Assembly: GCA_030431555.1 (NCBI GenBank)
Contig: JAUIIP010000002.1
Coordinates: 1-60,098, forward strand
Direction of reading: 5' to 3'
Length of the DNA stretch: 60,098 nt
Origin: a bacterium
Lineage (GTDB): Bacteria; Bdellovibrionota_C; UBA2361; SZUA-149; JAGRAN01
In this document: one piece after another, positions 678 to 18,224 of the stretch
How the letters are laid out: each line of letters begins with the position of its first letter
Numbering within the stretch: the stretch's first letter is position 1
Translations under genes and position numbers: made by a program
Notes under the pieces: model-generated
Databases searched by the model: none
Told to the model about the DNA's origin: nothing
Seen by the model: only the letters and a program-made list of their open reading frames with translations

Positions 678-3053
678 TCAAGCGTTCTTATCTCCGGCAT
701 CGACGATAACATCGCCCTTACTGCCGAATCGCAATCCACCCTTTTTAGCATTTTTTGCATTCCCGGACTCCTTTTCTGAAGCCTTGGGATTGTTTTGCTT
801 CGGGCCGTTCGGAGCACTGGAAGCAGCATCTTTTCCTACATTTTTGCCGCCGTTAACCTTAGGCTCCTGTTTATTAGATGCAGTAGCCTCCTTCTCGGAG
901 CTATCGGACGGCTTACCTTTCTCCTCGACCGCTTTTTGCGCGGTTTCAGGCTCATTCTTAGCCGCCGGCGTTGGATCTGGTGACTCTCCAACAAAAGTTC
1001 GGGCCCGGGGACGTCCCCGGAATCCTCGCATCAAATTAAAGCGGAAATTACCCTGCTCATCTTCTTCAGCGGGTTTCTCCTCTTCAGACTGCGGTTTCTG
1101 CGGAGAATTGCCATTTTCAGCTGCAGGTCCAGCAGGAGCCGAGCTCGTTGCGGAGCTGCCGCTCGGCACACTGCTCGAACTTGATGCGGTGCGCATTGCC
1201 TCAAGCTTGCCGGCATCGCGCTCGGTCTCGGCCTGCTCAACCGAGAGAATGTGCTCGTCTACCCACTCCGAGAGTCCAATTTCGTCGGCCTCAATTGACT
1301 CGTATCGTACAAGATATTCCCTGCCCTCCCACTGAGCAGGTAAATCGGAGTTAAACCAAAAGGCCCGGCCCTTGCGAAGTCTGCCGTCGCCGAGATCGAA
1401 CCAGGCCAATCCCTTTTCGGCCGACATCTCATGCTTCAGTTCTTCTGGACTTACCAAGGCTTCCTCGTCATCTGACAAAGTAACTCCATCGCGAAACTGG
1501 TCACTGCTCATTCGGTTCACCTGAACAGTTTTCGTAATCTCACGTCCCATCACACCAGAGGTGAGTCCCGTCGCCAGAGTCTTCTTCTGCGTCTTAATCT
1601 GTCCAATCCACTCGGACATATCTTCAGCAGTTCTGTTGTCACCGATACGCATGATGACCTTCAAGTTCACATTTGCCATCACACGCTCATAAAACTGCTC
1701 GGACAGCCCCATCGACGTATCCATCAAACCGCCCACAGACTGTGCTCCGAACATCAAAGCAAATCGCCCCTTACGAGCAAGTTCGAACAAGTTGGCCCAT
1801 GTTGGCCCGAAAGTAGAAGCTCCCTCATCGACGATAACCATGTGAGGGTCTTCAAGGGTGTAGTTTCGATTCGAGGTAATCTCACCAATCGAGACCTCTA
1901 AGTCCTCACGGAAAACTTTCACCATTCGCGCCGCACTCTCTGCTTCCTCCAAGCGCGGCAGCATGTAGTAGATCAACTTTCCTCGGAGAATTGCATCCGT
2001 CAGCGACAGATCCGCACGAGGGACGCAAAACATCTCCCCTGCCTCTGAGTTCGCAATTGAGTGCAGCTCCGAAGCGATACCCCTAAGGTTGTCAGTCAAG
2101 CGCGCCGAATCCAGACTGCCCTTTGCAGTTCTGTAACTTCCGGCAAGATGCCCTAGCTCTACTAAAGCCTGCTTTGATCCCTTCTCATGAAGAAGCGCCC
2201 GCAAACGAGGATACGCCAGCTGAAACGCTGATAAGGCAACTGCAATATCTCGCACAGACCAAGCCAGCCCAAAGCTTTCCATCGCACGAACGACTCGATA
2301 AACAGCGTCGGCCGCCAAACGGTCATAGTGCTTGGTTGTGCTTTGATCGGATGTCGGTGGAAGGCCGCAGCGCAGTACTTTACGCGCCTTAACGTCAGCA
2401 CGCTGAGTCGTAAATACGAAGTTATACGAGCAAACCGGGTCGAAAGGGTCGACAACAATAACGTCTTCTATGCGGCCTGTCAGCAAAGCCATCATAATAA
2501 TGTCAGCCAAAGTGCCCATGTCGCGCTTGGCATCGATGAACGTGAATCCGCTAGCGCGGCCACGAGCCATCTGCTGACACATCAGGCTTTGAAGCCATAA
2601 CGTCTTACCGACACCCGTCTTGGCAAAGACCGCGGCATGAGTGCAAAGGTCATCGTCAGAAACCCACAGTGGATCACCTGAGTTGAGTTCGAAGCCCACC
2701 AGGTATTTGTTGATCATTTTCTTTTTGCGTTTACGGGCTTCCTCAAGCGCCTCCTGAAACGCAGTGCGGCGTGGAGGAAGGCCAAGCACCGGCTTGCCGC
2801 CTCTGCGCTCTGATTCCGCCGCGCGTTCTTTTTCGATCCAATCGGCGTTGCTCTTTACCACCGACATAGAAACTAAGGCTAGAAGCGGCACGATACCGCC
2901 GGCGAAACCTAGACCGGTAGGCGAGGTGCCTCCGCCGAATAATAGCGCAACGAACGGAGCCGCCAGAAAGACCGCAGCGCCGCCCACAATCAAATTGCGC
3001 TGACGCTTTGCAAGCTCCTTCTGAACATTCTCTTTCTGATACTCTCGAGCCAT
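678..3053 (-). CDS. Type IV coupling protein (TraD/VirD4/TraG-family ATPase)
   Basis: N-terminal TM helices. Walker A AKTGVGKT, Walker B-like MVIVDEGAS, and an FIDAKRD motif typical of T4CPs. The last ~200 aa form a low-complexity S/K/E/P-rich tail. Confidence 0.85.
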   Translation of the reverse strand: MAREYQKENVQKELAKRQRNLIVGGAAVFLAAPFVALLFGGGTSPTGLGFAGGIVPLLALVSMSVVKSNADWIEKERAAESERRGGKPVLGLPPRRTAFQEALEEARKRKKKMINKYLVGFELNSGDPLWVSDDDLCTHAAVFAKTGVGKTLWLQSLMCQQMARGRASGFTFIDAKRDMGTLADIIMMALLTGRIEDVIVVDPFDPVCSYNFVFTTQRADVKARKVLRCGLPPTSDQSTTKHYDRLAADAVYRVVRAMESFGLAWSVRDIAVALSAFQLAYPRLRALLHEKGSKQALVELGHLAGSYRTAKGSLDSARLTDNLRGIASELHSIANSEAGEMFCVPRADLSLTDAILRGKLIYYMLPRLEEAESAARMVKVFREDLEVSIGEITSNRNYTLEDPHMVIVDEGASTFGPTWANLFELARKGRFALMFGAQSVGGLMDTSMGLSEQFYERVMANVNLKVIMRIGDNRTAEDMSEWIGQIKTQKKTLATGLTSGVMGREITKTVQVNRMSSDQFRDGVTLSDDEEALVSPEELKHEMSAEKGLAWFDLGDGRLRKGRAFWFNSDLPAQWEGREYLVRYESIEADEIGLSEWVDEHILSVEQAETERDAGKLEAMRTASSSSSVPSGSSATSSAPAGPAAENGNSPQKPQSEEEKPAEEDEQGNFRFNLMRGFRGRPRARTFVGESPDPTPAAKNEPETAQKAVEEKGKPSDSSEKEATASNKQEPKVNGGKNVGKDAASSAPNGPKQNNPKASEKESGNAKNAKKGGLRFGSKGDVIVDAGDKNA

Positions 3054-3069
3054 AAACCTTTAAGCAATC

Positions 3070-5289
3070 CTACGCCGTTGCGGCCGGTGGAACCTCCGAC
3101 GGTCCGTCTTTGAGTTCATTAATCCTGCGCTGAACGGCAGCGTCGAACGCATCGACGTCTGTGACTATTATAACATCCCTCTCCTTCGGGGCGTCGTTAT
3201 AATAGTTGCGCTGCCACACGTCGCCCAGCAGCTGCTGGAACCTACGCTGCCTCAGAGGAACTAAGGCATCCATCGGAACAACTTCGCTGTGCTGGTCCTC
3301 ACCTACCTGAAGAGTCAAAACTCCCTGGAGCAGACCGTCCACTGGCACGGCATCATCACCCACCCGGGTAGAAAGCCAGTTGTACTTGGTCAGCATCCTG
3401 CGCACGACCAGCCACTGCACGGCAATATCATGATCTGATTCGCTGTCGGCGAGCTTCCTGGTAACCCCCGTACCTTTCAGACCGCCAGCGGAAACTTCCT
3501 CTGCTTGGCGCTTGAAACCCGGCAACCCAGCCGAGGTGCTGAGCGAAGCAGTCCGGTCTCTAGTTGTTTCGATCAGCTCGATGATGCGTTTTTGCCTAAA
3601 CTCGCTGACTCCATGCAAACCGACCCGCAGCAAGCCTCGCAGCGGCATTAACACAACCGACTTATACGGCACTCCCAGCCATAAATGAGATGACACACTT
3701 GTGCTGTGCTCCTCACCTTCCATTCCTACGCCGCCGAGCACAGACCTAACCTTGGAAGCGAGGGAATTTCTCCATATTGAGTGCAATTCAGCAATATGCG
3801 CATCGAGCGCAACAAGGTGAGCTGTCTCTTGACGGACATCTTCGGCCGCATACAAAACTTCAAGCCAATCGCGCAGGGCCCGACTGGGCGCCTGCATCGT
3901 CATCGGAAGAAACGTTCGGCCGAAGTCTCCGTGTCGCCGAGAAGAATAAATAGCCTGCCTTATCTGATACCTCATATCGCCGTCGTAATCTCGAATATAA
4001 GACGGCATTGAACGCATCACTGCACGTGCCTGTAAATGCGGGAACAGCGAAACTTGGGCGTAGTTTCCGTCGTCAATCTCTTCGAAGGTAAGAACTTTGC
4101 CCGCTTCTATCGCAAGCACTGCTGTCGCAATAGCTCCAGGAGGAAGCGCAGCAATTGCCTCGGCCTGTGCCGGAGTTAGTCCGTTTAGCAGTATTTTCCC
4201 GAGAGGAGAAAGGGATTCCGAAACATGCTTGATAGCCTTATCGTGACGCCTGAAATGGGCCTCCTCGTCGCCCAACTCCCCTGTGCGCTCGATCATTTCC
4301 TTGTAGCGACACAGTGTCTGATGCGCTTCTAGAGCAGCAGCAAGGTTCGTCAAAGCCGCCTGCTCAATTGTTGGGCAGTCAGTCGACACTATACCGATTG
4401 GCTGAAAATCTTCCTCAATAGAATCCAAATCTACCGTTTCTTCAGCAGCTCGCTCCTCCGGTACTAAGCTCGGATACTTCGGGTAAGCAAGAATGACCTG
4501 GAGCAGTCCCGTATTAGTCTCGTTCGCTGCAGCGTATTGTTTCAAAACTGAGTAAGCTTTGTGCTTGGCGGCAACCGATTTAGGCACCTGCCTCGGACAG
4601 GCCAGGCTCGGACATGCGAAATCAGTTCCGCTGAAACTGCTATTAGGTTTAAACTTTCCCCAGATCCCGGAATAGTAGGGTCCTTTGCCCGGATTACAGA
4701 TGCCGAGCATGTCGTCAGTCGGAGTTGGTCGAAAGAAGCGGCGCGCACCGAAGTATGCAACAACCGCGGCGATTAACCACAACTTCCAATAGGCGATAAA
4801 GAGAAAGCCGATTCTAAGCAGCGCGCCCGCGACGGCATATCGTGCAGACTGAACCCACAATGTCATGTCGAACGAGCTATCCGACTCGATCGGCGGCGCT
4901 GAGCCGACAATTACGTCGATGACCCATTCAGAATAAGCCAAGTATGTTTGAGCTTGGGACTCCCCAAATAGAGAATCGGCAAGCCATTCATAGCGTTCGC
5001 TGATTTCAATTTTGGTTCGCTCCTGCCATGATCGCTTGACTGGCTTGTTTGCAGGAGTTTCTTCGGCATTGAGTCGATCAGCAACTCCAGCAAGCCCTGA
5101 ACCGTCGCCGGTAGCGGCATCTTCTACGTAAATGGAGTCGGACGGAGCAATCACGCGCAGCGCAGCGAATAGAAGTGCTATAGCAGCGCAGGCAATAAAG
5201 AACGTACGCAGGAAGGACCAGCGTCCAGCCAGCTCTTCGTCCGTTTGCTGTTTTAGCAGTGATATTCGTTTCGAATAATCGTACGCCAC
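3070..5289 (-). CDS. Large membrane-anchored hypothetical protein (739 aa) encoded directly upstream of the T4CP
   Basis: About three predicted TM segments in the first 200 aa, then a ~540-aa soluble domain. The gap to the T4CP start is 16 nt. No relaxase (HxDxxxHxH or HD) motif seen. Confidence 0.6.
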   Translation of the reverse strand: MAYDYSKRISLLKQQTDEELAGRWSFLRTFFIACAAIALLFAALRVIAPSDSIYVEDAATGDGSGLAGVADRLNAEETPANKPVKRSWQERTKIEISERYEWLADSLFGESQAQTYLAYSEWVIDVIVGSAPPIESDSSFDMTLWVQSARYAVAGALLRIGFLFIAYWKLWLIAAVVAYFGARRFFRPTPTDDMLGICNPGKGPYYSGIWGKFKPNSSFSGTDFACPSLACPRQVPKSVAAKHKAYSVLKQYAAANETNTGLLQVILAYPKYPSLVPEERAAEETVDLDSIEEDFQPIGIVSTDCPTIEQAALTNLAAALEAHQTLCRYKEMIERTGELGDEEAHFRRHDKAIKHVSESLSPLGKILLNGLTPAQAEAIAALPPGAIATAVLAIEAGKVLTFEEIDDGNYAQVSLFPHLQARAVMRSMPSYIRDYDGDMRYQIRQAIYSSRRHGDFGRTFLPMTMQAPSRALRDWLEVLYAAEDVRQETAHLVALDAHIAELHSIWRNSLASKVRSVLGGVGMEGEEHSTSVSSHLWLGVPYKSVVLMPLRGLLRVGLHGVSEFRQKRIIELIETTRDRTASLSTSAGLPGFKRQAEEVSAGGLKGTGVTRKLADSESDHDIAVQWLVVRRMLTKYNWLSTRVGDDAVPVDGLLQGVLTLQVGEDQHSEVVPMDALVPLRQRRFQQLLGDVWQRNYYNDAPKERDVIIVTDVDAFDAAVQRRINELKDGPSEVPPAATA

Positions 5290-5765: not shown

Positions 5766-6602
5766 ATGTTTTGTAGGTTGATTAAGATCGGTTTTCGTAC
5801 AACTGCGGCTGCAGCCGCTGCGGCAGTGATGACTCTGCCTCAATACGCAGCCGCCGACGACTACGCAAGCGCGGAGCGCGTCGCCGCCGCAAGAGGCCAC
5901 TACGCAAGAGCCCGAACTTTGTTGGTTGAAGCACTTGCTGAATTCGAGCGTGGTCGCCGAATTGCCCGCCCAGATATTTTGCTCGACCCAGAGGAATGGC
6001 GTCTGTCGGTCGTAAGTAGAACAGAAGAATTAAACAGAGTTCTCGATCCTCAGCCGCGCGTCACTCGCAGCGGTACACGTTTCAAGGCCAACCGCATGTT
6101 GATTCAAACAGGCGGCCAACCACGCATCCCGGTCGATACCGGTGTCCGCAGCTCCAATACTTTCGGAGAAGAACAGCGCGCCGAAGAACTTCGACGAGCA
6201 CGGGAACTTGAAGCGGCACGACAAACAGTCAAAGAAAAGCCTGTCGAAAATGAAATACCAGTCGACAGTACCAGAAACCTTGTTCGAAGTATTATCGCCG
6301 AGACACCGCCAGCGCCTCAATTAGCTGACGATGCGCCCGCACCAGCGGAGCCAGCGATGAACGAAGAACCGATAGCAAACGCCGAAGCCGAGTCGGCTAC
6401 TCCGAAAATGCCGGCGCGTGCCGCACTTTCGGCACCGGCTGCGCCTGCGGCTGAAGCAGCTTCTCCGGAAATGGCGTTTGACGAAGAATTTGAAGACGAA
6501 GCGTTCCTTGAAGAGGACAACGAAGAGATCTCTAAAGCGATTGAAGACGCGATAAAAGCTCGGCTAAAGCGCATAGATGGCGCTGACGCTCAGCCGCAGT
6601 AG
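5766..6602 (+). CDS. Secreted acidic/Ala-Pro-rich hypothetical protein, first gene of the plus-strand Mpf operon
   Basis: Signal-peptide-like N-terminus (TTAAAAAAAVMTLPQYAAA|DD) and a low-complexity acidic C-terminus. Confidence 0.55.
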   Translation: MFCRLIKIGFRTTAAAAAAAVMTLPQYAAADDYASAERVAAARGHYARARTLLVEALAEFERGRRIARPDILLDPEEWRLSVVSRTEELNRVLDPQPRVTRSGTRFKANRMLIQTGGQPRIPVDTGVRSSNTFGEEQRAEELRRARELEAARQTVKEKPVENEIPVDSTRNLVRSIIAETPPAPQLADDAPAPAEPAMNEEPIANAEAESATPKMPARAALSAPAAPAAEAASPEMAFDEEFEDEAFLEEDNEEISKAIEDAIKARLKRIDGADAQPQ

Positions 6603-6744: not shown

Positions 6745-7152
6745 ATGCAGTTTGACGAAGGCGAAGTGCTGCCGGGTTTGAATGAACCATGGACATTCAT
6801 GGGCGCTAACCTGATGGAATGGTCAGTAGGACTGGTCGTGTTCCTGATCATTGGACAGTGCGCGAGATCTCCGGCCACCGCCATGCCGCTAATGTTGACA
6901 GGCTGGATTCTGACGACAACCACACTTGCATCCGTCAGACGATCCTTCCCTGACGAAGAAAAAGGAACTCGGAATGCCTGCATGACCGCACTCGGGTTTG
7001 CTCCTCCTGGAATACCCGCCCCTGCTGGTCTGCAGCCCGTTTGGAGCGCAGCGCCGATCAAGAAGCTAAAAGAAGACTCTAGGTTTGTGAAACTTGGTTT
7101 AGAACGCATGTTCCCGACTCACCAGCGTGCGCTGGAAGATCCGGAAATATAA
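6745..7152 (+). CDS. TraL/VirB3-like small inner-membrane T4SS protein
   Basis: Its position is immediately before the TraE-like gene. N-terminal LPGLNEPWTFMGANLMEWSVGLVVFLIIG resembles the TraL pattern of a conserved loop followed by a TM helix. Confidence 0.5.
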   Translation: MQFDEGEVLPGLNEPWTFMGANLMEWSVGLVVFLIIGQCARSPATAMPLMLTGWILTTTTLASVRRSFPDEEKGTRNACMTALGFAPPGIPAPAGLQPVWSAAPIKKLKEDSRFVKLGLERMFPTHQRALEDPEI

Positions 7153-7166: not shown

Positions 7167-7919
7167 ATGGCAAAGAAAGCTATTAAAGATGATCTTCGAC
7201 AATTAGAGACCGTCGACGGTCGCGCCGGAGCGGACACGCTAAAGCTTTGGGAAAGCTACCGCGACCAAGCATTGATGTGGCGAGCTATTGCGCTGCTTCA
7301 GATGCCCGCTACAGCTCTGGCAATTGCCGCCGCACTCATAATGTACTTTTTTGCGGACACTATTATCGAAGTGCCTCAGCGGCCGCAGCCGGGCTACTAC
7401 TCACTGAAACAGCTTCCTGACAGCGAGTTCATCAGCGTGGCTACTGAAATTGTCAATCTGATCGCGTCATACCAGCCTACGGTTGCGCGAACTCAGTTTA
7501 GAACTGCGCGAAAATACCTTTGGGAGCCGGCACTGAGCGTCTTCGAAGAGGAGATGATGAACAAGGAACTGCGTGCGGTGGAAGAAACAAGCCGTTCCCA
7601 GCTGTTCTTCATCAACACAAGACAGGTAAAAGTCGAAAGATATCCAGACCTTGACGTTGTAGTCGTGCGAGTCCCCGGAACGCGCCAGAAGCTGATCGGC
7701 CGACGGCCGCTTCCACCTGATGAGCTGGTCTACTACATCAAAATGACGACAATCCCCCGAAACGTGCATAACGAGTATGGGATAGTGATCATCGACGTTA
7801 AGCGCCGACAAGCTACCAGTCGTGAAATCGACATCGAAGACCAGCAGGCAGCTTGGGAAGAAGCCGAGGCGCGCAAGAAAGAAGAAGAAATGAAGAAAGA
7901 AAACGAGGACAAGAAATAG
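7167..7919 (+). CDS. TraE/VirB8-like bitopic T4SS protein
   Basis: Single N-terminal TM (AIALLQMPATALAIAAALIMYFF) plus a ~150-aa periplasmic domain. Syntenic position between the TraL- and TraK-like genes. Confidence 0.55.
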   Translation: MAKKAIKDDLRQLETVDGRAGADTLKLWESYRDQALMWRAIALLQMPATALAIAAALIMYFFADTIIEVPQRPQPGYYSLKQLPDSEFISVATEIVNLIASYQPTVARTQFRTARKYLWEPALSVFEEEMMNKELRAVEETSRSQLFFINTRQVKVERYPDLDVVVVRVPGTRQKLIGRRPLPPDELVYYIKMTTIPRNVHNEYGIVIIDVKRRQATSREIDIEDQQAAWEEAEARKKEEEMKKENEDKK

Positions 7920-10475: not shown

Positions 10476-10495
10476 TTCAGGAGATCGCAGGCAAG

Positions 10496-11002: not shown

Positions 11003-13726
11003 ATGAGTATTACACGGCTTACACGACAACGGCTCTATGACGACGAGGCGCTGTTTAACGAACTGCTTCCGTATGTCAAATGGGACGACAGGAATCAAGT
11101 GTTCGTACATTCGGACGCGTCGCTGTGGTCCGTCTGGCAGCTGAGCCCACTTCTACTTACGTCGACCTCCGACGCTTATGCTTTTCAAACCTGCGCAACA
11201 ATTCAAGAACTGATCGACTCACTCGATCAACGGATCTCACTTCAGTTTAACTGGATAACTACTTACGACGTAGAAGATATCCTTGACCGCTGCATCCACG
11301 ATTATCCGAAAGACGGAGTTGCTGGATGGATGGGTCGGCGCTGGGTAAAGATGATTCGCTCCGGCTCCAAGTCCACCGAATACGGCAGACGGGTTAAAAA
11401 GCGGCGCCTGCTTGCATGCTTTCGCTACGACCCACCATGGAGCGGACGCACACCAATCGATGAGCTCAAAGATTCGATCCGCGTGCTCCTGCAGGGCCCG
11501 CGAGATCCCAACGAAGAGAACGACAGAACTGAAGAGTTCACGCGCTTCGTAGACAAGTTTCAAGGTGAAATTGAAGGTAAGATTACTCGATTCGCAGATA
11601 TGGGTTTCCGTCCTATCCGAATTGACGGACAAGCGCTGATAGATCTGCTTTACCCGATCTTAAACCGCCGCAGCACGAAAGGCGGAAAATTCAAGCGTGG
11701 GCGGTACAACGCCGTGCCTACTCCTGAATATGATCCGGATGATATTTTATCGAACCAGATTTCAGATACTCCTGCTTACCACCCGGAAGACGGTTACATG
11801 GTAAAAGACGGAAGAGTCTTTCACTGCGTGAGCATGGTGAAACCGCCCAAGCAGTGCCTTCCGTTAATGACGATTGCACTGCAGAGTGTTCCCGTTGAGT
11901 CTATTTTGTCGGTAACCTTTTCAAGAGATCCGATTGAGCAGCAGCTCAAGCGCCTCAACCAGCTCGACAGCACCTTGGGTATGCGCGAGCGTTCGCCGCT
12001 GGGCAGAACGAACCAGAAGGTACTGCACCAAATTGCGACCGTGCGGCAAGCTCGAGAAGAATTGTATTCTAACCGCTCGCAGATCGTAAGAGTCGGCGTG
12101 CACCACGTTCAAATTACTCAAACTCTCGACGAGGCGCGTCGAGCTGCGAGTGAAGTTTTAGCGCTGTTCCCGTCGCTAAACGGAGCACGAGGAATGTCGC
12201 ACATGATCAGCGACCTTGGAGTTATACTCCATGCACTCCCCGCGTCCTACGATCCGTCGACCGACGGACCTGGCTGGACCGCGATGATGCGCTCCTCTCG
12301 AGCTGCGAGGCTCTTTCCACTGTGGGGAAACTGGAGCGGCAGCAAAAACCATCTATTCGTTCTACCTAGCTTGTGGAACCGCGAATTGGTGCATTTCGAT
12401 CTGTATGATTCAAACGTCGCACCGAACGTCATTATCAGTGGGGTGTCGGGTGCTGGTAAGAGTTACCTGCTCAACTTCTTGATCATTACAATGAACCGCG
12501 GCCATTTTTCGGAAAAGCCTGACGGCACAAGAATTCCGAAGCCTGCAATTACTTTCATCTTTGACAAAGGGATGCCTAACCAGCCCTGCGGATTTGAGCG
12601 CGTAGCAAAACTTTTCGGAGGTCTCGTCTATCAAGCGACTCCTTCTCGCGCTCCGGCAATGAACTTCCTGAGCCGCCTCGGCGATATGGATCCCGACAAA
12701 ACCGACGAAGACTTTAAAGATATTTTTGATGTCTGCGTTGATATTATTTGCGACATGGCCACGGAACAAAACACCGTGCTCGGCCGAGTGCAGCGCAACG
12801 AGATAATCGAATCCCTAACGGAAGCGCACTATCGCTATCGCCACGGAGCGCGGGAGCGTGAGTTTTTACTGCGCGACATTATGAAAGTTCTGAAGGAGCC
12901 GCCGCGCCCGAACGAAACTGAAGATAACTTCAGAATGCGCCAAGAGATCTCAATTCTTATGCGGGAATTCTATGGCGACGGAACCTATGCACGGTTCTTC
13001 GACCGCGCCGGAAGTTTGGAACTCGATCGCCGCTTCATCGTGTTTGATCTCAAAGGCCTCAGCCGAAACCCGGATCTCCAACGAGTATTTCTCAAAGTAG
13101 CGATGCTCTGGGCTGACAACGTCATGAATGACCCGGTTGAGCTTGATACTAGAAAGCTATTGGTATTTGACGAAGCACATGATCTGGTCGGTAAGACCGC
13201 CGCCGGTGTTGTTGAAGCAGCTTTCCGGCTCTACCGTAAACGAAAGGGTATCGTAATCGCCGCGTCACAGTCCGGTGAGGACTTTTACGTCGGGGAAGGC
13301 GGGCAGGCAATTATTCAGAACAGCTCGCACAAAATATTCCTGCGCCAAGACCCGTCTAAATTTCACCTAACTGCTCAGGCGTTTAACTTAAACCCACAGC
13401 AGGCTGAAACAATAATGCGCTTAAACACCGTAAAAGGCGTCGAGTCGCAGTTCTTTCTTCTTTCGGACATCGGAGAGGCTGCATTAGTTTTACCGCTTGA
13501 GCCGTCGTTCTACTGGGTATCAACCAACAACGGTGACGACAACCAATTGTTCGCAGCCCTGCTCGATGAGTGCGACGGCGACTTTGTTGCAGCCCTGCGT
13601 CGGGCGGTTGAAATTGCACCCAACGGAGCCGAAGATTTCGCACGACGACGACGCGAAATGGAGCGCGTAGTTGAAGATGAATCAGAAGGAAGATCTCTGG
13701 ACCTTAGAAGCGGTTTAGTAGCTTAA
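11003..13726 (+). CDS. traC: TraC/VirB4-family T4SS ATPase
   Basis: 907 aa. F-type TraC-like N-terminus (FNELLPYVKWDDRNQVFVHSDASLWSVWQLSPL). Walker A GVSGAGKS, Walker B LLVFDEAHD. Confidence 0.9.
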   Translation: MSITRLTRQRLYDDEALFNELLPYVKWDDRNQVFVHSDASLWSVWQLSPLLLTSTSDAYAFQTCATIQELIDSLDQRISLQFNWITTYDVEDILDRCIHDYPKDGVAGWMGRRWVKMIRSGSKSTEYGRRVKKRRLLACFRYDPPWSGRTPIDELKDSIRVLLQGPRDPNEENDRTEEFTRFVDKFQGEIEGKITRFADMGFRPIRIDGQALIDLLYPILNRRSTKGGKFKRGRYNAVPTPEYDPDDILSNQISDTPAYHPEDGYMVKDGRVFHCVSMVKPPKQCLPLMTIALQSVPVESILSVTFSRDPIEQQLKRLNQLDSTLGMRERSPLGRTNQKVLHQIATVRQAREELYSNRSQIVRVGVHHVQITQTLDEARRAASEVLALFPSLNGARGMSHMISDLGVILHALPASYDPSTDGPGWTAMMRSSRAARLFPLWGNWSGSKNHLFVLPSLWNRELVHFDLYDSNVAPNVIISGVSGAGKSYLLNFLIITMNRGHFSEKPDGTRIPKPAITFIFDKGMPNQPCGFERVAKLFGGLVYQATPSRAPAMNFLSRLGDMDPDKTDEDFKDIFDVCVDIICDMATEQNTVLGRVQRNEIIESLTEAHYRYRHGAREREFLLRDIMKVLKEPPRPNETEDNFRMRQEISILMREFYGDGTYARFFDRAGSLELDRRFIVFDLKGLSRNPDLQRVFLKVAMLWADNVMNDPVELDTRKLLVFDEAHDLVGKTAAGVVEAAFRLYRKRKGIVIAASQSGEDFYVGEGGQAIIQNSSHKIFLRQDPSKFHLTAQAFNLNPQQAETIMRLNTVKGVESQFFLLSDIGEAALVLPLEPSFYWVSTNNGDDNQLFAALLDECDGDFVAALRRAVEIAPNGAEDFARRRREMERVVEDESEGRSLDLRSGLVA

Positions 13727-13733: not shown

Positions 13734-14048
13734 ATGATGAAGCTCAACAAGATTCACACATTGCTTGCAGTCGGAGCTCTGGCGATGGGCTGCTCTAACG
13801 AAAAGCCACCAGCTCCACCGGAAACCCCGGTCGTCACTGAAGTAATCGCTCATGTTGACGAGAACAGGGTGCCGGGAACAATCGAGAACGCGTGGGAAGA
13901 GACAATGCACAACCAGGTGCAGGTCCCAGGCAAGCTTGACCCGACAGGCACCTACTACCGCCCCCCTCACAAGACAATTGTGGAGATTAGACCGGGGCGA
14001 GTGCAGCCTGTGCAGTTTCCGAACACCAAGGACGAGCAGCAGCGCTGA
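13734..14048 (+). CDS. Small lipoprotein (paralog A), TraV-motif-like
   Basis: Lipobox LAMGCSNE. The WEETM ... GTYYRPPHKTIVEIRPGR block is shared with the next gene. AGAGAGG SD. Confidence 0.6.
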   Translation: MMKLNKIHTLLAVGALAMGCSNEKPPAPPETPVVTEVIAHVDENRVPGTIENAWEETMHNQVQVPGKLDPTGTYYRPPHKTIVEIRPGRVQPVQFPNTKDEQQR

Positions 14049-14074
14049 GAAAAGTGATTTGAGGATTGAAAGGG

Positions 14075-14407
14075 ATGAATATCATGGCCGGCATGCGTAG
14101 AACTCTAACAATTTTGTCCATGACGATTATGTTGTTTTCTATCGGCTGCTCCAATAAGGAGCTGCCGGAGCCGCGGGAATACGTGGAAGCACCAGCGCCT
14201 AAAGTTAGCGTTGGCTCTCAGCCGGCTGAGGTGCCGCCCGGCGTGGTTCGCTACTGCTGGGAGGAGCCTATGGTAACTTTTGAGCAAAACGGCCCCGGAA
14301 TTGATCAAGAAGGGCATTGGTATCACCCTTCCTATATTGCCGTGCGGCAAGTAAGATCAGGGAAGTGGCGGCCGTGCGAAGCAGAAATTGAACGTGAAGT
14401 GCGTTAG
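14075..14407 (+). CDS. Small lipoprotein (paralog B)
   Basis: Start moved to the ATG at 14075 (GAGGA 9 nt upstream). Lipobox FSIGCSNK. WEEPM ... GHWYHPSYIAVRQVRSGKW is parallel to paralog A. Confidence 0.6.
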   Translation: MNIMAGMRRTLTILSMTIMLFSIGCSNKELPEPREYVEAPAPKVSVGSQPAEVPPGVVRYCWEEPMVTFEQNGPGIDQEGHWYHPSYIAVRQVRSGKWRPCEAEIEREVR

Positions 14408-14428: not shown

Positions 14429-14863
14429 ATGAACGTAAATAAGGTTGTTAGTTTCTTACTACTCCGACCGGCGTTCACAGGCAGAAATGTGACGTCGCTT
14501 GGACTGGTTGCTCTGTTTTTTGCTGTATATGTTGCAGCAGGTGGAAAAATAACCACTGTACCGACGATGAAAACCGGCGGGTCTTTTGGCAGCGTCGAAA
14601 ACGTCGTAACCGACAAGAAAGACGCAGAGACAACTGCCGCTCAAAGCGAAAACAGCGCCGCCCAGCCTACCGGCCAAGCTGTATCGACGAGAATCGATTC
14701 GCTGTTTGGCTCGAGCGGAAACGCGGGTTCTTCGGCTAACACTCGTCCCGCTGCGGACAAAGCTCCCGCGGCGGTAAAGCCTGCGGCCGGCGGCGATAAA
14801 GGGCTCGATGACATAGAGGCAAGATTAAAAGGTCTTGGCTCGACTAGAGGGAACAGGCAGTGA
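14429..14863 (+). CDS. Bitopic membrane protein with a disordered Ala/Ser/Gly-rich C-terminal half
   Basis: GAGGAG lies 6 nt upstream. One TM (LGLVALFFAVYVAAGG). No known domain recognised. Confidence 0.55.
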   Translation: MNVNKVVSFLLLRPAFTGRNVTSLGLVALFFAVYVAAGGKITTVPTMKTGGSFGSVENVVTDKKDAETTAAQSENSAAQPTGQAVSTRIDSLFGSSGNAGSSANTRPAADKAPAAVKPAAGGDKGLDDIEARLKGLGSTRGNRQ

Positions 14864-15663
14864 ACGACGATTCGTTTGAAGCTGACGAATTTTTTCAATC
14901 AGGCAGTAGTTCGCAAACTACTGCCAGTCCGCGCAGCAGCACAGCTGCCGACAATTCCGCGCGCCCTCAACAGGAAAATCTAAGCCGCGATTACTCGGAT
15001 GTCCGCGATGACATTGACGACGATCGACCACTCGATTCTGAAGTAATAGAAGTTCACGGAACCGCCGAGAACATTCAGAAGGTCGGATCGCCTACCGAGA
15101 ACCGCGATCGAGCACCCATCCGATATTATTTTTATCCAACATGGCGCTCGCAGCTTTTCCCGCTTCTTGGATTCGGCGTCCTTTGCATCCTTGCCGTAGT
15201 CGGCTCAAAGTACCTTACGTGGACCATCATCGCTGGCGAACTGCTTTCAATCGGCAGCACGACTTACTATTTGCACTTGCCGTTACTGGCCCTTCTGCCC
15301 GGGTTCTTTCTTGGTAAAATTCTGATCTATATCTACGACTCGAAATACATCATTGACGAGCGAGGCGTTGAAGCTCAAGTCGGACTAGTCTCTTTAAACC
15401 TTAGGCAGCCTAGACTGCGATACGAAGATATTCGCGGAGTCGAGCCGAACCAGACAATTCTTGAGAGAATTTTAGGTATCGGCAGTGTGCTGATCGGAAG
15501 CGCAATGACTCAAGATGTAGAAATTGTAATGGAAGGAGTAGCGAATCCAAGGGCGATTCAGCTTCTACTTCAAGGTGAACGTGATAAGAGGTTATCGCTG
15601 CTCAGCGGATCAGGCCGAGACAGCGAAGGCGCGAGGCAGGCGCTAGGTGTTACAGGTGATTGA
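14860..15663 (+). CDS. Membrane protein with a bacterial PH (bPH_2/YdbT-like) domain
   Basis: GTG start overlaps the upstream stop (GTGA). About three TM helices, then YIIDERGVEAQVGLVSLNLRQPRLRYEDIRGVEPNQTILERILGIGSVLIG, which is typical of bPH_2. Confidence 0.6.
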   Translation: MNDDSFEADEFFQSGSSSQTTASPRSSTAADNSARPQQENLSRDYSDVRDDIDDDRPLDSEVIEVHGTAENIQKVGSPTENRDRAPIRYYFYPTWRSQLFPLLGFGVLCILAVVGSKYLTWTIIAGELLSIGSTTYYLHLPLLALLPGFFLGKILIYIYDSKYIIDERGVEAQVGLVSLNLRQPRLRYEDIRGVEPNQTILERILGIGSVLIGSAMTQDVEIVMEGVANPRAIQLLLQGERDKRLSLLSGSGRDSEGARQALGVTGD

Positions 15664-15678
15664 TAAAGGTTTGTTGTT

Positions 15679-17706
15679 GTGGACGGTAAGAAAAAGAAGA
15701 TTTTAGCCATAGTCGCCGGAGTTGTAGTACTCGGCTTCGCAGCGAGCAGCGCTTTAGGCTCCGGCACCAAAGGTCAGGGCGAACAGCGCGCACCTGGATC
15801 AGGCGCTCCTGCCATAAACAGTCAGTTTGGTGCAAGCGGCGAATCCTTGGACACTGACGAAGTCCTGATTAGGCTTGCAAGCTACGAGCAGCGCATTCTG
15901 AACCTGGAACAGGAGGAACGTCCGAACGTAATGGTTCCTACCGCCAATGCGCTCAGTAGCTACCGCGGTGGAGAGACGGTAGCGAGTGTCGAGGACAGAA
16001 TCGCCAAGAACCAGCAGACGCGCGGTGAAGCAGTTTCTCTCGCGGAACATAAAATGATCAAAAAGCAGCTCCGCCAGCGAATCGAAGAGCTGGAGACGGC
16101 TCTGCAAACCTCGGAAGAGCTGATTGTCGAGCTAAAGAAGGTGCGACCTTCGACGGCTCAGCTGAAAGGTTTCGCTGAAGAGCGCGCAAAAAACCGAGAA
16201 ATCATCACAAAGCTGACGGAAAAGATTAGCGAACTTGAGCGCGACATAAACCAGCCTCGGGTTCACGATATCGATTCAGCCGACTCGCGCATGAAAGCAG
16301 AGCTCGCCGAGGCGCAAAAGGAAATCATGAAGCTCACCGATCAGCGAAACAGGTTGATTGACAGGATGCGCGCAATGAAGGCGGAAACGACTCAGCATCG
16401 CGAAGCCTCAGAATCCGAACAACGCACCGTTTCCCGCCTTAAGTCCGAACTTCGCCAGGTTCAGGACGAATATAAAGCGAAAGAAGATCAGTTGCGCGCT
16501 TACGAACGACAACTCAATGACTACGAACGCGTCCAGCAGGAACTGGCTTCCACCAACAGTAAGCTCGCGGAAGCACAGCGTGGCAACGAGGCTTTAAAAT
16601 CAGAAATTGCCAGACTCAGCACAGCTACCGAGAACAATGCCTACTTGCGAAAAGAGCTGGAGACAGCCCAAAACGAGTTAAAAGAGCTAAGGATAGAAAC
16701 TCGTTCGAGCAAAGCCAAGCTAAGCAGTCTGACATCGAAGACTGAACGCATCGAACCGGCGCTGGAGAAAGCTCAAGCTGAAAACACAGAGCTTCGCGAA
16801 CGAAGTGCAAAAATGAAAGCACATTTGGCTGAGCTCAAGAGCAGACAGGAGGATTTCGAGAAAACACTTGCAACCCTCCGGGAGCAAAACTCTCAACTCA
16901 CTGAGTCATCTTCAACCAGAGAGCAGGAAGTAGCGACACTTAAGCAGTGGTTAAAGTCGTTAAGAGACGAAAAGCGTTCTCTTGAAACTGACAAGCAAGA
17001 CCTTTCTTCCAAGCTGGACAAAGCAACCGAAGCTCTTCGTGCTCTCAAAGAGAAGGTTGACAAGACGGATGAGATCATTGCCTCGAAAGAAGAAGAGTTA
17101 GGCAACACGACTCGTCAACTTAGCCGCACTATTCAGGACGCCAAACAGCTTGAGCAAAAGCTTGAAGACAAAGACAAGGCGCTTGCGCGAATACCGGAGC
17201 TGGAACGAGAACTTATCGATGCCAGAAACCAGCTGCTGCTCAAAGAAACTGAGCTTGCTAGGCTGAGTGGAGCAGGTAAAGTCGACCGCGCTCTGGTCAG
17301 TCCCCCGGCACGAAAGCCGGCAGACTCCGTGGGTATTCGACCTGCAGCAGATGTTTTGATAGTCGAGATCATTCCTCGCAAGGTTAATTTGCGAGTAGGT
17401 CCCGGGCAAGAACACTCGCCGCTGATGCAGCTGAGACAGGGATCGCGACTTACCGTTGAGAACAGACAAGGCGACTGGTATCGCGTAATGACGCCCGAAG
17501 GAAAACGAGCCTACATAAGGGCGGATGTCGTCCGTCCGGTTAACTCGCCGGCTCCCGCTCAGCGCGCAGGCGCACGGGGTCAGATTGGCACTTCCAAGAT
17601 GGAGCCGTTCGGCACTGTCAACCGCTCTCGAGGCGCTGTTAAAGAAACTTCCGACGAGGAGACCCAGGCGCTGGATTATTTGCGTTCGTCCATGCAGGGC
17701 CGTTAA
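15679..17706 (+). CDS. N-terminally anchored long coiled-coil protein with a C-terminal SH3b domain
   Basis: 675 aa. TM ILAIVAGVVVLGFAA, then ~450 aa of heptad-like E/K/L/Q-rich sequence. C-terminal VNLRVGPGQEHSPLMQLRQGSRLTVENRQGDWYRVMTPEGKRAYIRADVV is SH3_3-like. Confidence 0.65.
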   Translation: MDGKKKKILAIVAGVVVLGFAASSALGSGTKGQGEQRAPGSGAPAINSQFGASGESLDTDEVLIRLASYEQRILNLEQEERPNVMVPTANALSSYRGGETVASVEDRIAKNQQTRGEAVSLAEHKMIKKQLRQRIEELETALQTSEELIVELKKVRPSTAQLKGFAEERAKNREIITKLTEKISELERDINQPRVHDIDSADSRMKAELAEAQKEIMKLTDQRNRLIDRMRAMKAETTQHREASESEQRTVSRLKSELRQVQDEYKAKEDQLRAYERQLNDYERVQQELASTNSKLAEAQRGNEALKSEIARLSTATENNAYLRKELETAQNELKELRIETRSSKAKLSSLTSKTERIEPALEKAQAENTELRERSAKMKAHLAELKSRQEDFEKTLATLREQNSQLTESSSTREQEVATLKQWLKSLRDEKRSLETDKQDLSSKLDKATEALRALKEKVDKTDEIIASKEEELGNTTRQLSRTIQDAKQLEQKLEDKDKALARIPELERELIDARNQLLLKETELARLSGAGKVDRALVSPPARKPADSVGIRPAADVLIVEIIPRKVNLRVGPGQEHSPLMQLRQGSRLTVENRQGDWYRVMTPEGKRAYIRADVVRPVNSPAPAQRAGARGQIGTSKMEPFGTVNRSRGAVKETSDEETQALDYLRSSMQGR

Positions 17707-17723
17707 AATAGCCTATAGGACAT

Positions 17724-18224
17724 ATGCTGTTTAGAGGTTTTTTAATTGCAGCGCTCTGCTGCCCAGTCATCCTATTTCAGCCTGCGTTCGCGGCAGCGGA
17801 TCCACCTATTGCCAGTTCAGTAGTTTTTCCAATCTTAAATCCGAGACTATCCAGCAAATTCGGCTCGAGGCGGCATCCGATCAAGCACACCAAGCGTCAT
17901 CACAATGGAGTTGATTTGGCGGCACCGGAAAACAGTCATGTGCGCGCAATTGCTAGCGGTAGAGTCATATTTGCCGGCGTATACTCCGGATACGGTAAGC
18001 TTGTGTCGATCGATCATGGCGGAGGCTATGTTTCGATGTATGGGCATCTCCGTGAAATCCGCATTAACATCGGAGAGAAGGTCAAAGCCGGCGATTTGAT
18101 CGGGCGCGTTGGAAGCACTGGTCTGGCAACCGGACCACACCTACACTTCGAGTGGCGAAAAAACGGGAAGCCACTGGACCCGCTCAAAGCCTTCCCCTTC
18201 TTCACCGCCGAAGCCAAAGGGTGA
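17724..18224 (+). CDS. M23/LytM-family peptidoglycan endopeptidase
   Basis: Signal peptide. Catalytic motifs HHNGVD (HxxxD) and GPHLHFE (HxH) are intact. Confidence 0.85.
   Translation: MLFRGFLIAALCCPVILFQPAFAAADPPIASSVVFPILNPRLSSKFGSRRHPIKHTKRHHNGVDLAAPENSHVRAIASGRVIFAGVYSGYGKLVSIDHGGGYVSMYGHLREIRINIGEKVKAGDLIGRVGSTGLATGPHLHFEWRKNGKPLDPLKAFPFFTAEAKG

What the first reader, a model, noticed from the sequence alone, without database searches (positions are those of the whole stretch)
678..18224. F/G-type T4SS core with a reduced gene set and a non-canonical downstream module
The plus-strand operon keeps the classical traL-traE-traK-traB-traV-traC order, and a TraD-like coupling ATPase is divergently encoded. 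In F-type and ICE (G-type) systems this core is normally accompanied by TraW, TraU, TrbC, TraN, TraF, TraH and TraG. None of the six ORFs after TraC (104, 110, 144, 267, 675 and 166 aa) has the size or composition of those proteins. For example, there is no Cys-rich TraN-like protein, no ~940-aa TraG-like protein and no thioredoxin-like TraF. No relaxase or VirB11-like ATPase is visible either. This could be a minimal or re-purposed T4SS lineage rather than a standard conjugation machine.
Basis: partly seen in the sequence, partly recalled or inferred. Interest (0 to 1): 0.72.

Follow-up and report, generated by a model that had tools for sequence, protein, structure and literature searches.

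The report
Chromosomal F-like secretion machine in Bdellovibrionota
This is the main gene cluster of a conjugation-type (F-like) type IV secretion machine that sits permanently in the chromosome of a group of uncultured Bdellovibrionota, so it probably serves the cell rather than a plasmid; some of the parts that look "missing" are encoded at a second chromosomal site in a close relative.

Summary
A plus-strand operon runs TraL-like, TraE, TraK, TraB, TraV, an extra lipoprotein, then VirB4/TraC. A TraD-like coupling ATPase is encoded divergently. None of the six ORFs after TraC is a TraW/U/N/F/H/G homologue, and no relaxase, integrase, tRNA or VirB11 lies in the 60-kb window or the 7.5 kb upstream.

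This is not a mobile element. At least 80 species-level MAGs of uncultured Bdellovibrionota carry the cluster, with VirB4 58-98% identical. Housekeeping genes flank it, and its GC content tracks the host's (r = 0.98).

"Reduced gene set" is only partly right:
- One nested sub-lineage has TraU-like, TraF-like and TraG_N genes inside the cluster.
- A MAG of the window's own sub-lineage carries a separate locus with a TraF-like gene and five tandem TraG_N paralogues.

TraN, TraW and TrbC were never found.

Verdict: a multi-locus, vertically inherited F-lineage T4SS. It probably delivers macromolecules by cell contact, but its function is inferred, not shown. It is a new variant of a known kind.

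The parts
68..577 (-). 169-aa cytoplasmic protein, last gene of the coupling-protein module. It has the highest median identity to the window protein of any family compared (68%).
   Evidence: Alignment A7 has 77 invariant columns. Found downstream of the T4CP in 17 loci at 65-76% identity. No Pfam, NCBIfam or PDB hit. The single-sequence AF2 model is unusable (pLDDT 40).
678..3053 (-). TraD/VirD4-type coupling ATPase (T4CP), 791 aa, with two N-terminal TM segments and a roughly 190-aa low-complexity C-terminal tail
   Evidence: PF12696 7.6e-7; TIGR03743 SXT_TraD 1.6e-15. Walker A (GVGKT) and Walker B (VIVDEG) are readable in the translation. TM segments. 55-91% identical in 41 loci.
3070..5289 (-). 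739-aa membrane-anchored protein of unknown fold, first gene of the T4CP module. It occupies the position that MobH relaxase holds next to traD in SXT-like elements.
   Evidence: Conserved in 45 loci at 23-81% identity. Alignment A4 has invariant RRHGDFGR and NWLSTRVGDD motifs. AF2 model pLDDT 76.8. Foldseek against PDB gives nothing below E = 0.3. No NCBIfam relaxase hit in any of 29 members. Gene order in reference elements.
5766..6602 (+). 278-aa secreted protein, first gene of the plus-strand operon. It has a conserved N-terminal domain of about 110 aa and an acidic tail.
   Evidence: Found in 62 loci. The conserved domain is duplicated in L068. No family hit.
6745..7152 (+). TraL/VirB3-position small membrane protein, 135 aa
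   Evidence: Sits immediately upstream of TraE in 62 loci. One TM segment. No TraL profile hit, so the assignment rests on position only.
7167..7919 (+). TraE (VirB8-like) bitopic inner-membrane protein, 250 aa
   Evidence: PF05309 hit in 10 of the roughly 15 clade homologues scanned, best 2.7e-6. Family HMM against reference TraE 3.4e-6. N-terminal TM segment.
7938..8771 (+). TraK (VirB9-like) outer-membrane core component, 277 aa
   Evidence: PF23536 TraK_C 4.6e-4 for the window protein, and hit by 21 of 29 members; TraK_N in 3 members. TIGR02756 6.8e-4.
8796..9983 (+). TraB (VirB10/TrbI-like), 395 aa
   Evidence: PF03743 1.7e-18, 67.6 bits, above the cutoff of 35. Family HMM against four reference TraB proteins 1e-19 to 1e-30.
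10005..10475 (+). TraV lipoprotein (VirB7-like), 156 aa
   Evidence: PF09676 hit by 26 of 28 members. Family HMM against P. putida TraV 9e-6. Lipobox LTSC.
10442..10960 (+). 172-aa probable lipoprotein specific to this lineage, with only weak DotD/N0-like similarity
   Evidence: Found in 76 loci. PF16816 DotD 3e-4 for the window protein, but only 1 of 28 other members hits it.
11003..13726 (+). VirB4/TraC ATPase, 907 aa
   Evidence: PF11130 and PF19044 both above their cutoffs. TIGR02746 3.4e-54. Walker A (GAGKS) and Walker B (VFDEAHD) in the translation. 58-98% identical in 80 species genomes.
13734..14048 (+). Small lipoprotein, 104 aa, paralogue of the next gene
   Evidence: Both genes match one single gene in distant loci. 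The family is in 71 loci. The only resemblance to TraV is at the signal peptide and lipobox.
14066..14407 (+). Small lipoprotein, 113 aa, paralogue of 13734-14048
14429..14863 (+). 144-aa single-pass membrane protein with a low-complexity body and a conserved C-terminal 'LDDIE..LG' end
   Evidence: Family HMM finds it in 32 loci. The equivalent family 12 is in 43 loci. No known domain.
14860..15663 (+). 267-aa membrane protein with a bacterial PH (bPH_2/YdbT-like) domain
   Evidence: PF03703 2.9e-5 for the window protein, and hit by 18 family members, best 6.4e-13. TM segments.
15679..17706 (+). 675-aa membrane-anchored long coiled-coil protein ending in a peptidoglycan-binding SH3b domain
   Evidence: PF08239 9.9e-11. 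Only the SH3b part (residues 504-619) is conserved across 62 loci, and the protein length varies from 213 to 742 aa.
17724..18224 (+). Secreted M23/LytM peptidoglycan endopeptidase, 166 aa, with intact HxxxD and HxH motifs
   Evidence: PF01551 1.6e-36. Motifs HNGVD and HLH in the translation. Found in 55 loci.
18313..21371 (-). Two paralogous polytopic membrane proteins (506 and 522 aa, 9-10 TM). They are an insertion between the M23 gene and the pilin gene and probably not part of the system.
   Evidence: Present in only 4 loci. 30% identical to each other. No Pfam hit. In most loci the pilin gene follows the M23 gene after 100-380 bp.
21612..21998 (+). VirB2/TrbC-type pilin precursor, 128 aa, with a long leader ending ...A|Q and two hydrophobic helices
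   Evidence: Alignment A1 has 20 invariant columns. PF04956 TrbC/VirB2 is hit by 4 members, best 2.7e-4. The pilin gene follows M23 in 31 of 48 loci that have room for it. Hydrophobic segments.

Best explanation
The window holds the core locus of a type IV secretion system descended from the F-type (MPF-F) lineage. The system has become a resident, vertically inherited chromosomal trait of a clade of uncultured Bdellovibrionota.

Shown:
- Intact genes for VirB4/TraC, TraE, TraK, TraB, TraV, a VirB2-type pilin and a TraD-type coupling ATPase.
- A clade-specific accessory set: extra lipoproteins, a bPH membrane protein, an SH3b coiled-coil protein and an M23 peptidase.
- The whole set is syntenic across the clade.
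- No mobile-element hallmarks.
- In a relative of the same sub-lineage, VirB6-like TraG_N genes (five paralogues) and a TraF-like gene lie at a second chromosomal locus.

Inferred mechanism:
- TraC, the TraL-like protein, TraE and TraB form the inner-membrane platform.
- TraK, TraV, TraB and the extra lipoproteins form the outer-membrane core.
- The M23 endopeptidase, positioned by the SH3b coiled-coil protein, opens the peptidoglycan. It would replace the usual VirB1-type lytic transglycosylase.
- The pilin is polymerised into a pilus.
- The coupling ATPase, with its 739-aa membrane partner and its 169-aa cytoplasmic partner, feeds substrates into the channel.

The clade keeps the system with no relaxase or integrase nearby. 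Its most likely role is therefore contact-dependent delivery of macromolecules (effector proteins and/or DNA) to other cells, for the benefit of the bacterium (prey or host interaction), not self-transfer of an element.
For: F-lineage identity:
- Profile hits for the core genes.
- VirB4 scores best against TraC-F-type: 184 bits, against 113 for generic VirB4, 50.8 for G-type and 25.5 for Bacteroidetes-type.
- The closest plasmid TraC proteins are only 22-27% identical.

Fixation in the chromosome:
- VirB4 homologues at 58-98% identity in 80 listed species genomes (112 confirmed), all uncultured Bdellovibrionota, Bdellovibrionales or Oligoflexia MAGs.
- 298 protein clusters in metagenomes.
- Gene order is conserved from the T4CP to the pilin.
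- Flanks are housekeeping genes: menaquinone genes upstream; purC, TamA/B, lipoate and E2 genes downstream.
- No tRNA.
- GC of the T4SS region against its flanks gives r = 0.98 over 43 loci spanning 33-58% GC.

The machine looks functional:
- Walker motifs of both ATPases and the M23 catalytic motifs are intact.
- The 169-aa partner has 77 invariant columns.

Multi-locus organisation:
- L090 has the TraU-like, TraF-like and TraG_N block inside the cluster.
- L089 has the T4CP module and that block but no VirB4 operon beside it.
- The IT291 MAG has both the core locus and a separate TraF-like + five TraG_N locus.
Against: - Function is entirely inferred. No expression data, substrate or effector has been identified, and no member of the clade is cultured.
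- For the window's own genome, the second locus (TraG_N, TraF-like) could not be searched. It is shown only in a relative whose VirB4 is 76% identical.
- A relaxase could be encoded elsewhere in the genome. The 739-aa protein sits where MobH sits in SXT-like elements and has no recognisable fold, so a novel DNA-processing role is not excluded.
- The TraL-like and DotD-like assignments are weak.
- The T4CP module is absent from the neighbourhood in 8 of 44 loci, and the pilin gene in 17 of 48. The composition of the system may vary between lineages.
Confidence: 0.75

Rival explanations
1. This is a truly minimal F-derived T4SS. The window's organism has lost all F-specific periplasmic and mating-pair genes (TraF/H/G/N/U/W, TrbC) and works with the core plus the new downstream module alone.
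For: HMMs of the TraU-like, TraF-like, TraH-position and TraG_N families find nothing in the 60-kb window or in the other 78 loci within 10 kb of VirB4. The gap between the 739-aa gene and the 278-aa gene is only 476 bp here, whereas L090 has five genes at that spot. TraN, TraW and TrbC were never detected in any locus.
Against: A MAG of the same sub-lineage with the same downstream module has a TraF-like gene and five TraG_N paralogues at another locus. The sub-lineage with the adjacent block is nested in the VirB4 tree, not basal. A block that lies elsewhere in most genomes needs fewer events than four or more independent precise deletions. All well-studied Gram-negative T4SSs have a VirB6/TraG_N-type membrane component (my own knowledge, not tested here).
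Confidence: 0.2
2. This is an ordinary conjugative element (ICE or plasmid fragment) of MPF-F/G type, and its relaxase, integrase and remaining tra genes lie just outside the window.
For: The T4CP is present and closest to SXT-type TraD. The gene order 739-aa gene, T4CP, small gene mimics mobH-traD-small genes in SXT-like plasmids.
Against: Same-strain contigs show TPR, UbiE, UbiX, Mqn and SelU genes directly upstream and housekeeping genes for 38 kb downstream. No integrase, tRNA or relaxase was found. GC matches the host in 43 genomes. VirB4 is monophyletic against four F-type outgroups and 58-98% conserved across at least 80 species of one clade. No match above 27% identity in 72,556 plasmids.
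Confidence: 0.04
3. This is a DNA export or uptake machine, analogous to the F-type T4SS of the Neisseria gonorrhoeae genetic island (DNA secretion) or to H. pylori ComB (uptake). It would use an unrecognised DNA-processing protein, with the 739-aa protein as the candidate.
For: The T4CP is of the DNA-transfer TraD type. The 739-aa protein is arginine-rich and membrane-anchored, has invariant H/D/R motifs and no known fold, and occupies the relaxase position. The comparison with the Neisseria and Helicobacter systems comes from my own knowledge.
Against: No HUH or HD relaxase signature. Only one His and one Tyr are invariant. The profile of this family gives no hit to MobH (best E = 0.5 to unrelated proteins), and NCBIfam gives none. 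ComB-type uptake systems lack a T4CP (my own knowledge).
Confidence: 0.15

Closest known systems
MPF-F (F-type) conjugative T4SS, especially the SXT/R391-IncA/C-like branch (e.g. P. putida plasmid NZ_CP047313, V. fluvialis pIDH5335-2)
   Same: The gene order traL-traE-traK-traB-traV ... traC is the same. VirB4 has the F-specific TraC_F_IV N-terminal domain. The T4CP is closest to SXT_TraD. No VirB11 is present. TraG_N, TraF-like and TraU-like genes exist in relatives.
   Different: The locus is chromosomal and vertically inherited. It has no MobH or other relaxase, no integrase and no S26 signal peptidase. TraN, TraW and TrbC were not detected. The pilin is VirB2/TrbC-like, not TraA-like. An M23 peptidase replaces the lytic transglycosylase. 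Extra lipoproteins and the bPH and SH3b proteins are added. TraC is only 22-27% identical to the reference TraC proteins.
Rickettsiales vir homolog (rvh) T4SS (comparison from my own knowledge)
   Same: Both are chromosomal and vertically inherited within a clade, scattered over several loci and lacking a relaxase. Both have a tandem expansion of VirB6-family genes: five TraG_N paralogues in L092, and four to five in L091-L094.
   Different: rvh belongs to the P/T-type lineage (VirB/D4 nomenclature, with VirB11). This system is F-lineage by VirB4, TraE, TraK and TraV. Its hosts are free-living or predatory-phylum bacteria, not obligate intracellular ones. That the TraG_N arrays serve this T4SS is inferred from co-occurrence in one MAG.
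Neisseria gonorrhoeae genetic island F-type T4SS, the one well-known F-type system not used for conjugation (my own knowledge)
   Same: Both are F-lineage machines with a non-conjugative role encoded on the chromosome, and both have a TraD-type coupling protein.
   Different: The gonococcal island is a horizontally acquired island with the full F gene set and a MobH-family relaxase, TraI. Here there is no relaxase, the accessory genes differ, and the system is conserved clade-wide.
Predator T4SS proposals, e.g. Vampirovibrio chlorellavorus (PMC4451040) and the bacteria-killing X-T4SS of Xanthomonadales
   Same: Both propose that a conjugation-derived T4SS serves contact-dependent attack on other cells in a predatory or antagonistic bacterium.
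   Different: Those systems are T-type. The Vampirovibrio operons are partly plasmid-borne and have relaxases. No effector or immunity pairs or XVIPCD-type substrates have been identified here.

Membership tests
MPF-F (F-type T4SS) | VirB4 of the TraC type with the F-specific N-terminal domain | tested here: met
   PF11130 TraC_F_IV scores 48.9 bits (cutoff 28.1) and PF19044 scores 42.6 bits (cutoff 25.8). TIGR02746 is the best NCBIfam model at 184 bits, but that is far below its equivalog cutoff of 567. This is a divergent branch, not an equivalog.
MPF-F (F-type T4SS) | TraE, TraK, TraB and TraV core genes in the canonical order | tested here: met
   TraB is above the Pfam cutoff. TraE is hit in 10 of the roughly 15 homologues scanned, TraV in 26 of 28 members and TraK_C in 21 of 29 members, all at sub-threshold but consistent E-values. 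Family HMMs hit reference TraE, TraV and TraB.
MPF-F (F-type T4SS) | TraL (VirB3-like) | tested here: inconclusive
   The 135-aa membrane protein is in the right position, but no TraL profile, PDB or hhalign hit was obtained.
MPF-F (F-type T4SS) | F-specific periplasmic and mating-pair proteins TraF, TraH, TraN, TraU, TraW and TrbC | tested here: not met
   None is in the window. Relatives have only a TraU-like gene (2.4e-5 against V. fluvialis TraU), a Trx-like/TraF-like gene and a gene in the TraH position. TraN, TraW and TrbC were never seen. Genome-wide absence in the window organism is not testable here.
MPF-F (F-type T4SS) | TraG_N (VirB6-like) polytopic protein | tested here: inconclusive
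   Absent from the window. Present in the cluster in L024, L027 and L090 (PF07916 5.6e-6). Present at a separate locus in same-sub-lineage MAG IT291 (PF07916 42.3 bits, above the cutoff of 36.1; MAG link).
MPF-F (F-type T4SS) | TraA-type F pilin | tested here: not met
   The pilin family weakly matches TrbC/VirB2 PF04956 (4 members, best 2.7e-4), not TraA. The family HMM against reference TraA proteins gives E = 0.095.
Conjugative element (ICE or plasmid) | A relaxase (any MOB class) linked to the T4CP and T4SS | tested here: not met
   No relaxase family hit on any window ORF, on the upstream 7.5 kb or on the 29 members of the 739-aa family. A relaxase elsewhere in the genome is not testable here.
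Conjugative element (ICE or plasmid) | Integrase with an attachment site or tRNA, or replication genes, and a composition different from the host | tested here: not met
   No tRNA, no integrase or replication domains. GC is 0.524 against 0.521 for the rest of the window, and r = 0.98 across 43 loci.
MPF-G (ICEHin1056/ICEclc type) | VirB4 of the PFL_4706 type and the TIGR037xx ICE protein series | tested here: not met
   TIGR03744 scores 50.8 bits against a cutoff of 520. TIGR03752 gives E = 5.6e-4, weaker than the F-type TraB model. No other ICE-series hits.
MPF-I (Dot/Icm-like) | DotD, DotC and DotH outer-membrane lipoprotein set | tested here: not met
   Only the window's 172-aa lipoprotein (3e-4, below the cutoff of 27 bits) and 1 of 28 homologues touch PF16816. 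No other Dot/Icm families were hit.

The most novel reading that the evidence does not exclude
An F-lineage T4SS has been turned into a clade-defining cell-surface organelle of uncultured Bdellovibrionota. It would be a multi-locus, relaxase-free machine with its own peptidoglycan-cutting module (M23 + SH3b), new coupling-protein partners (739 aa and 169 aa) and an expanded battery of TraG_N/VirB6 paralogues, used to inject effectors or DNA into prey or host cells. That would make it an F-type counterpart of the Rickettsiales rvh system. To my knowledge it would also be the first F-type system recruited for a non-conjugative, organism-level function across a whole clade.
Probability: 0.35. Interest if true: 0.8.

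Novelty: new variant of a known kind. Interest (0 to 1): 0.6.

Why it matters
F-type T4SSs are regarded almost exclusively as conjugation machines. Known protein-delivering T4SSs derive from the T and I types (my own knowledge). This would be an F-derived system fixed in the chromosome of a whole clade in a phylum known for predation. It has no relaxase, lineage-specific accessory genes and probably an amplified VirB6-like gene set.

If the reading is right, it would:
- be an independent case of a conjugation machine domesticated for the cell's own use;
- show which F components are dispensable or replaceable, for example a lytic transglycosylase replaced by an M23 peptidase;
- supply a concrete candidate apparatus for cell-cell interaction in abundant but uncultured freshwater and wastewater Bdellovibrionota.

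Four full-text searches for T4SS or VirB4 in Bdellovibrionota, Bdellovibrio or Oligoflexia found no description of this system.

Tried and rejected
- PDB sequence-profile searches with the pilin, TraL-like and 169-aa families found nothing.
- Foldseek of the 739-aa AF2 model against PDB gave no hit below E = 0.3. The few PDE4 (HD-fold) hits at E of 1.5 or worse are not evidence.
- Local hhalign of the family alignments against thin alignments from four reference F-type systems gave only signal-peptide or lipobox matches. An earlier run timed out.
- hhalign of A4 against MobH, TraG and DUF4400 crashed. Protein comparison of A4 against MobH failed internally. None of these is used as evidence.
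The single-sequence model of the 169-aa protein was useless (pLDDT 40), so no fold search was run on it.
- The promoter and terminator scan was at chance level.
- The E2 gene comparison, meant to place L091 taxonomically, was uninformative: 32% identity, probably a different paralogue.
- I considered the DotD-like lipoprotein as a sign of an F/I hybrid and rejected it: only 1 of 28 homologues hits DotD.
- I considered the 267-aa bPH protein and the 739-aa protein as VirB6 substitutes. No similarity supports either.

Full report
**1. What is in the sequence**

On the minus strand, three genes are read in the order 739-aa gene, T4CP, 169-aa gene:
- A 739-aa membrane-anchored protein (3070-5289).
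- A 791-aa coupling ATPase (678-3053). It scores PF12696 7.6e-7 and TIGR03743 SXT_TraD 1.6e-15. It has two N-terminal TM segments and intact Walker A and B motifs.
- A 169-aa cytoplasmic protein (68-577).

On the plus strand, a tightly packed operon holds:
- A 278-aa secreted protein.
- A 135-aa TraL-position membrane protein.
- TraE. PF05309 is hit in 10 of the roughly 15 clade homologues scanned, best 2.7e-6.
- TraK. TraK_C is hit in 21 of 29 members.
- TraB. PF03743 scores 67.6 bits, above its cutoff.
- TraV. PF09676 is hit in 26 of 28 members.
- A 172-aa lineage-specific lipoprotein.
- VirB4/TraC. PF11130 and PF19044 are above their cutoffs, and TIGR02746 gives 3.4e-54.

HMMs built from the clade's own homologues hit reference F-type proteins: TraB (1e-19 to 1e-30), TraC (1e-24 to 4e-37), TraE (3e-6) and TraV (9e-6). 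The references came from four systems: the F plasmid, two SXT-like plasmids and a Manganitrophus plasmid.

**2. The six ORFs after TraC**

They are:
- Two paralogous small lipoproteins (104 and 113 aa). Both map to a single gene in distant relatives.
- A 144-aa single-pass protein.
- A 267-aa membrane protein with a bPH_2 domain.
- A 675-aa anchored coiled-coil protein ending in an SH3b domain.
- A secreted M23 endopeptidase with intact catalytic motifs.

None matches TraW, TraU, TrbC, TraN, TraF, TraH or TraG. This holds for Pfam and NCBIfam on the window proteins, for per-member Pfam scans of the small-lipoprotein, 144-aa and bPH families, and for family HMMs against the reference F systems.

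**3.

A 128-aa gene at 21612-21998 (+) encodes a typical VirB2-type pilin precursor. It has a long leader ending A|Q and two hydrophobic helices, with 20 invariant columns in the family alignment. Four members hit PF04956 TrbC/VirB2.

In 31 of 48 loci with enough sequence, the pilin gene follows the M23 gene, in most of them after 100-380 bp. In the window it is displaced by two paralogous polytopic membrane-protein genes on the other strand (18313-21371). Those genes occur in only 4 loci.

**4. Not a mobile element**

- Downstream, the window holds TauE, a DCC1-domain protein, purC, an ECF sigma factor, TrmFO, an E2 acyltransferase, a LipB-LipA fusion and TamB/TamA.
- Contigs of the same strain extend 7.5 kb beyond the window's left end. 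They show a TPR protein, UbiE, UbiX, menaquinone (Mqn) genes and SelU.
- There is no relaxase, integrase, replication gene, VirB11 or tRNA.
- GC is 0.524 for the cluster against 0.521 for the rest of the window.

**5. Distribution**

VirB4 has 298 cluster-level homologues in the large protein collection; the 120 best listed are 61-100% identical.

In the species-representative genome collection, 112 loci were confirmed. The best 80 have 58-98% identity. All 80 are metagenome-derived assemblies; most are labelled Bdellovibrionota, Bdellovibrionales, Oligoflexia or "Deltaproteobacteria", and the rest carry generic labels (bacterium, Pseudomonadota/Proteobacteria) or, in one case, Candidatus Dadabacteria.

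By contrast, the best of 72,556 plasmids is 22-27% identical.

Every gene from the T4CP module to the M23 peptidase is syntenic in most loci. Median identities to the window proteins are:

| Protein | Median identity |
|---|---|
| 169-aa protein | 68% |
| T4CP | 65% |
| VirB4 | 63% |
| TraV | 54% |
| TraK | 50% |
| TraB | 38% |
| 739-aa protein | 27% |

Across 43 loci whose GC ranges from 33 to 58%, the GC of the T4SS region tracks that of the flanking DNA (r = 0.98). This is what long residence in each genome predicts.

In a neighbour-joining VirB4 tree, the clade sits on a long stem away from four F-type TraC outgroups.

**6. Are the "missing" F genes really missing?**

Not from the clade.

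In L027, L024 and L090, five genes lie between the 739-aa gene and the 278-aa-like gene:
- A 211-aa gene.
- A TraU-like gene of about 355 aa. Its family HMM scores 2.4e-5 against V. fluvialis TraU.
- A thioredoxin-like gene in the TraF position.
- A gene of about 480 aa in the TraH position.
- A TraG_N protein (PF07916 5.6e-6).

In L089 this block sits beside the T4CP module with no VirB4 operon next to it. The system can therefore be split.

HMMs of the five families find nothing in the window or in the other 78 loci. In the VirB4 tree, the block-bearing sub-lineage is nested rather than basal. A block located elsewhere in most genomes is more parsimonious than many independent precise deletions.

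I then ran a profile search of the TraG-like family against 1.84 billion representative proteins:
- It gave three near-perfect full-length hits, then a tier of hits from 1e-49 to 1e-31.
- All four tier members I looked up lie in chromosomal tandem arrays of 3-5 TraG_N paralogues (3 visible on the truncated L093 contig). These are L091-L094.
- Array member P0193 has locus tag IT291_05275.
- VirB4 P0051 is 76% identical to the window's VirB4. Its neighbours are IT291_11390 and IT291_11395, on JADLFC010000187 of GCA_020845775.1. The array and the T4SS core are thus in the same MAG.
- That organism's core locus has the same downstream module as the window (L095, L096).
- Its second locus (L092) reads: TraF-like gene (413 aa, 7.7e-19 to the clade TraF-like HMM), a 660-aa gene, then five TraG_N paralogues. 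One paralogue scores 42.3 bits on PF07916, above the cutoff of 36.1.

"Reduced gene set" is therefore partly an artefact of reading one locus of a multi-locus system.

TraN, TraW and TrbC were never found. I could not search the rest of the window organism's own genome.

**7. The 739-aa and 169-aa proteins**

The 739-aa family has strong invariant motifs (RRHGDFGR, LPGFKRQ, NWLSTRVGDD). Its AF2 model is usable (pLDDT 76.8). It has no structural neighbour in PDB and no relaxase or other family hit in any of 29 members. Its position beside the T4CP mirrors mobH-traD in SXT-like elements, but nothing else supports a relaxase role.

The 169-aa protein has the highest median identity to the window protein of any family compared (68%) and 77 invariant columns. 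It has no hits.

Both are best described as clade-specific partners of the coupling protein.

**8. Mechanism (inferred)**

- An F-lineage envelope-spanning channel and a VirB2-type pilus are built by the core genes.
- Peptidoglycan is opened by the M23 endopeptidase with the SH3b coiled-coil protein, instead of a VirB1-type lytic transglycosylase.
- Substrates are recruited by the T4CP and its two partners.
- VirB6-like TraG_N proteins are supplied from another locus.

The system is clade-wide, shows strong purifying selection and has no transfer genes nearby. This points to a function for the cell. In a phylum known for predation, contact-dependent delivery to other cells is the most plausible role. 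A comparable idea was proposed for Vampirovibrio (PMC4451040). This step is inference only.

**9. Comparison and novelty**

The system works like, and descends from, MPF-F. It fails several MPF-F membership features: the F-specific periplasmic proteins at this locus, a TraA-type pilin and the equivalog-level score cutoffs. It fails all tests for a conjugative element.

The closest analogue in evolutionary logic is the Rickettsiales rvh system: chromosomal, scattered, relaxase-free and with expanded VirB6 genes. That system is of a different T4SS lineage (my own knowledge).

Four literature searches found no description of this system.

I rate it a new variant of a known kind, with interest 0.6.

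Noticed in passing
L091 7420-17045; L092 5003-17213; L093 2-9214; L094 361-13346: Chromosomal tandem arrays of 3-5 TraG_N (VirB6-like) paralogues of 680-980 aa each (3 visible on the truncated L093 contig). They are followed on the opposite strand by a gene of about 350-570 aa and one or two polysaccharide-deacetylase genes. GC ranges from 36 to 57%, so the arrangement is widespread. It was linked to this T4SS in one MAG only (IT291).
   Followed up: partly
window 18313-19833 (-) and 19803-21371 (-): Two 30%-identical polytopic membrane proteins (9-10 predicted TM, no Pfam hit) are inserted between the M23 gene and the pilin gene. They are present in only 4 of 80 related loci.
   Followed up: partly
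window 68-577 (-): A 169-aa protein with no known domain has the highest median identity to the window protein of any family in the system (68%, against 63% for VirB4): 77 invariant columns, with motifs GGLWATxRAFLYGVESLDEN and EEERRRIKLGPRDLLC.
   Followed up: partly
window 37447-39063 (+): A single 538-aa ORF combines a LipB/LplA-type catalytic domain with a radical-SAM domain. It appears to be a fusion of octanoyltransferase and lipoyl synthase, and it lies directly after an E2 acyltransferase gene.
   Followed up: no
window 22950-24182 (-): A 410-aa protein whose C-terminal 110 aa form a DCC1-like thiol-disulfide oxidoreductase domain. The N-terminal 280 aa have no hit.
   Followed up: no
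L068 5067-5738: In this relative, the first operon protein (homologue of window 5766-6602) carries the conserved domain of about 80 aa twice in tandem. This suggests a modular periplasmic helical-hairpin domain.
   Followed up: no
L049, L078, L052 (between the 739-aa gene and the 278-aa-like gene): The divergent intergenic region, about 120-800 bp in the other loci, is 4.0, 2.2 and 1.0 kb in these three loci. This implies lineage-specific insertions at the same spot where L090 holds the TraU-like, TraF-like and TraG_N block.
   Followed up: no
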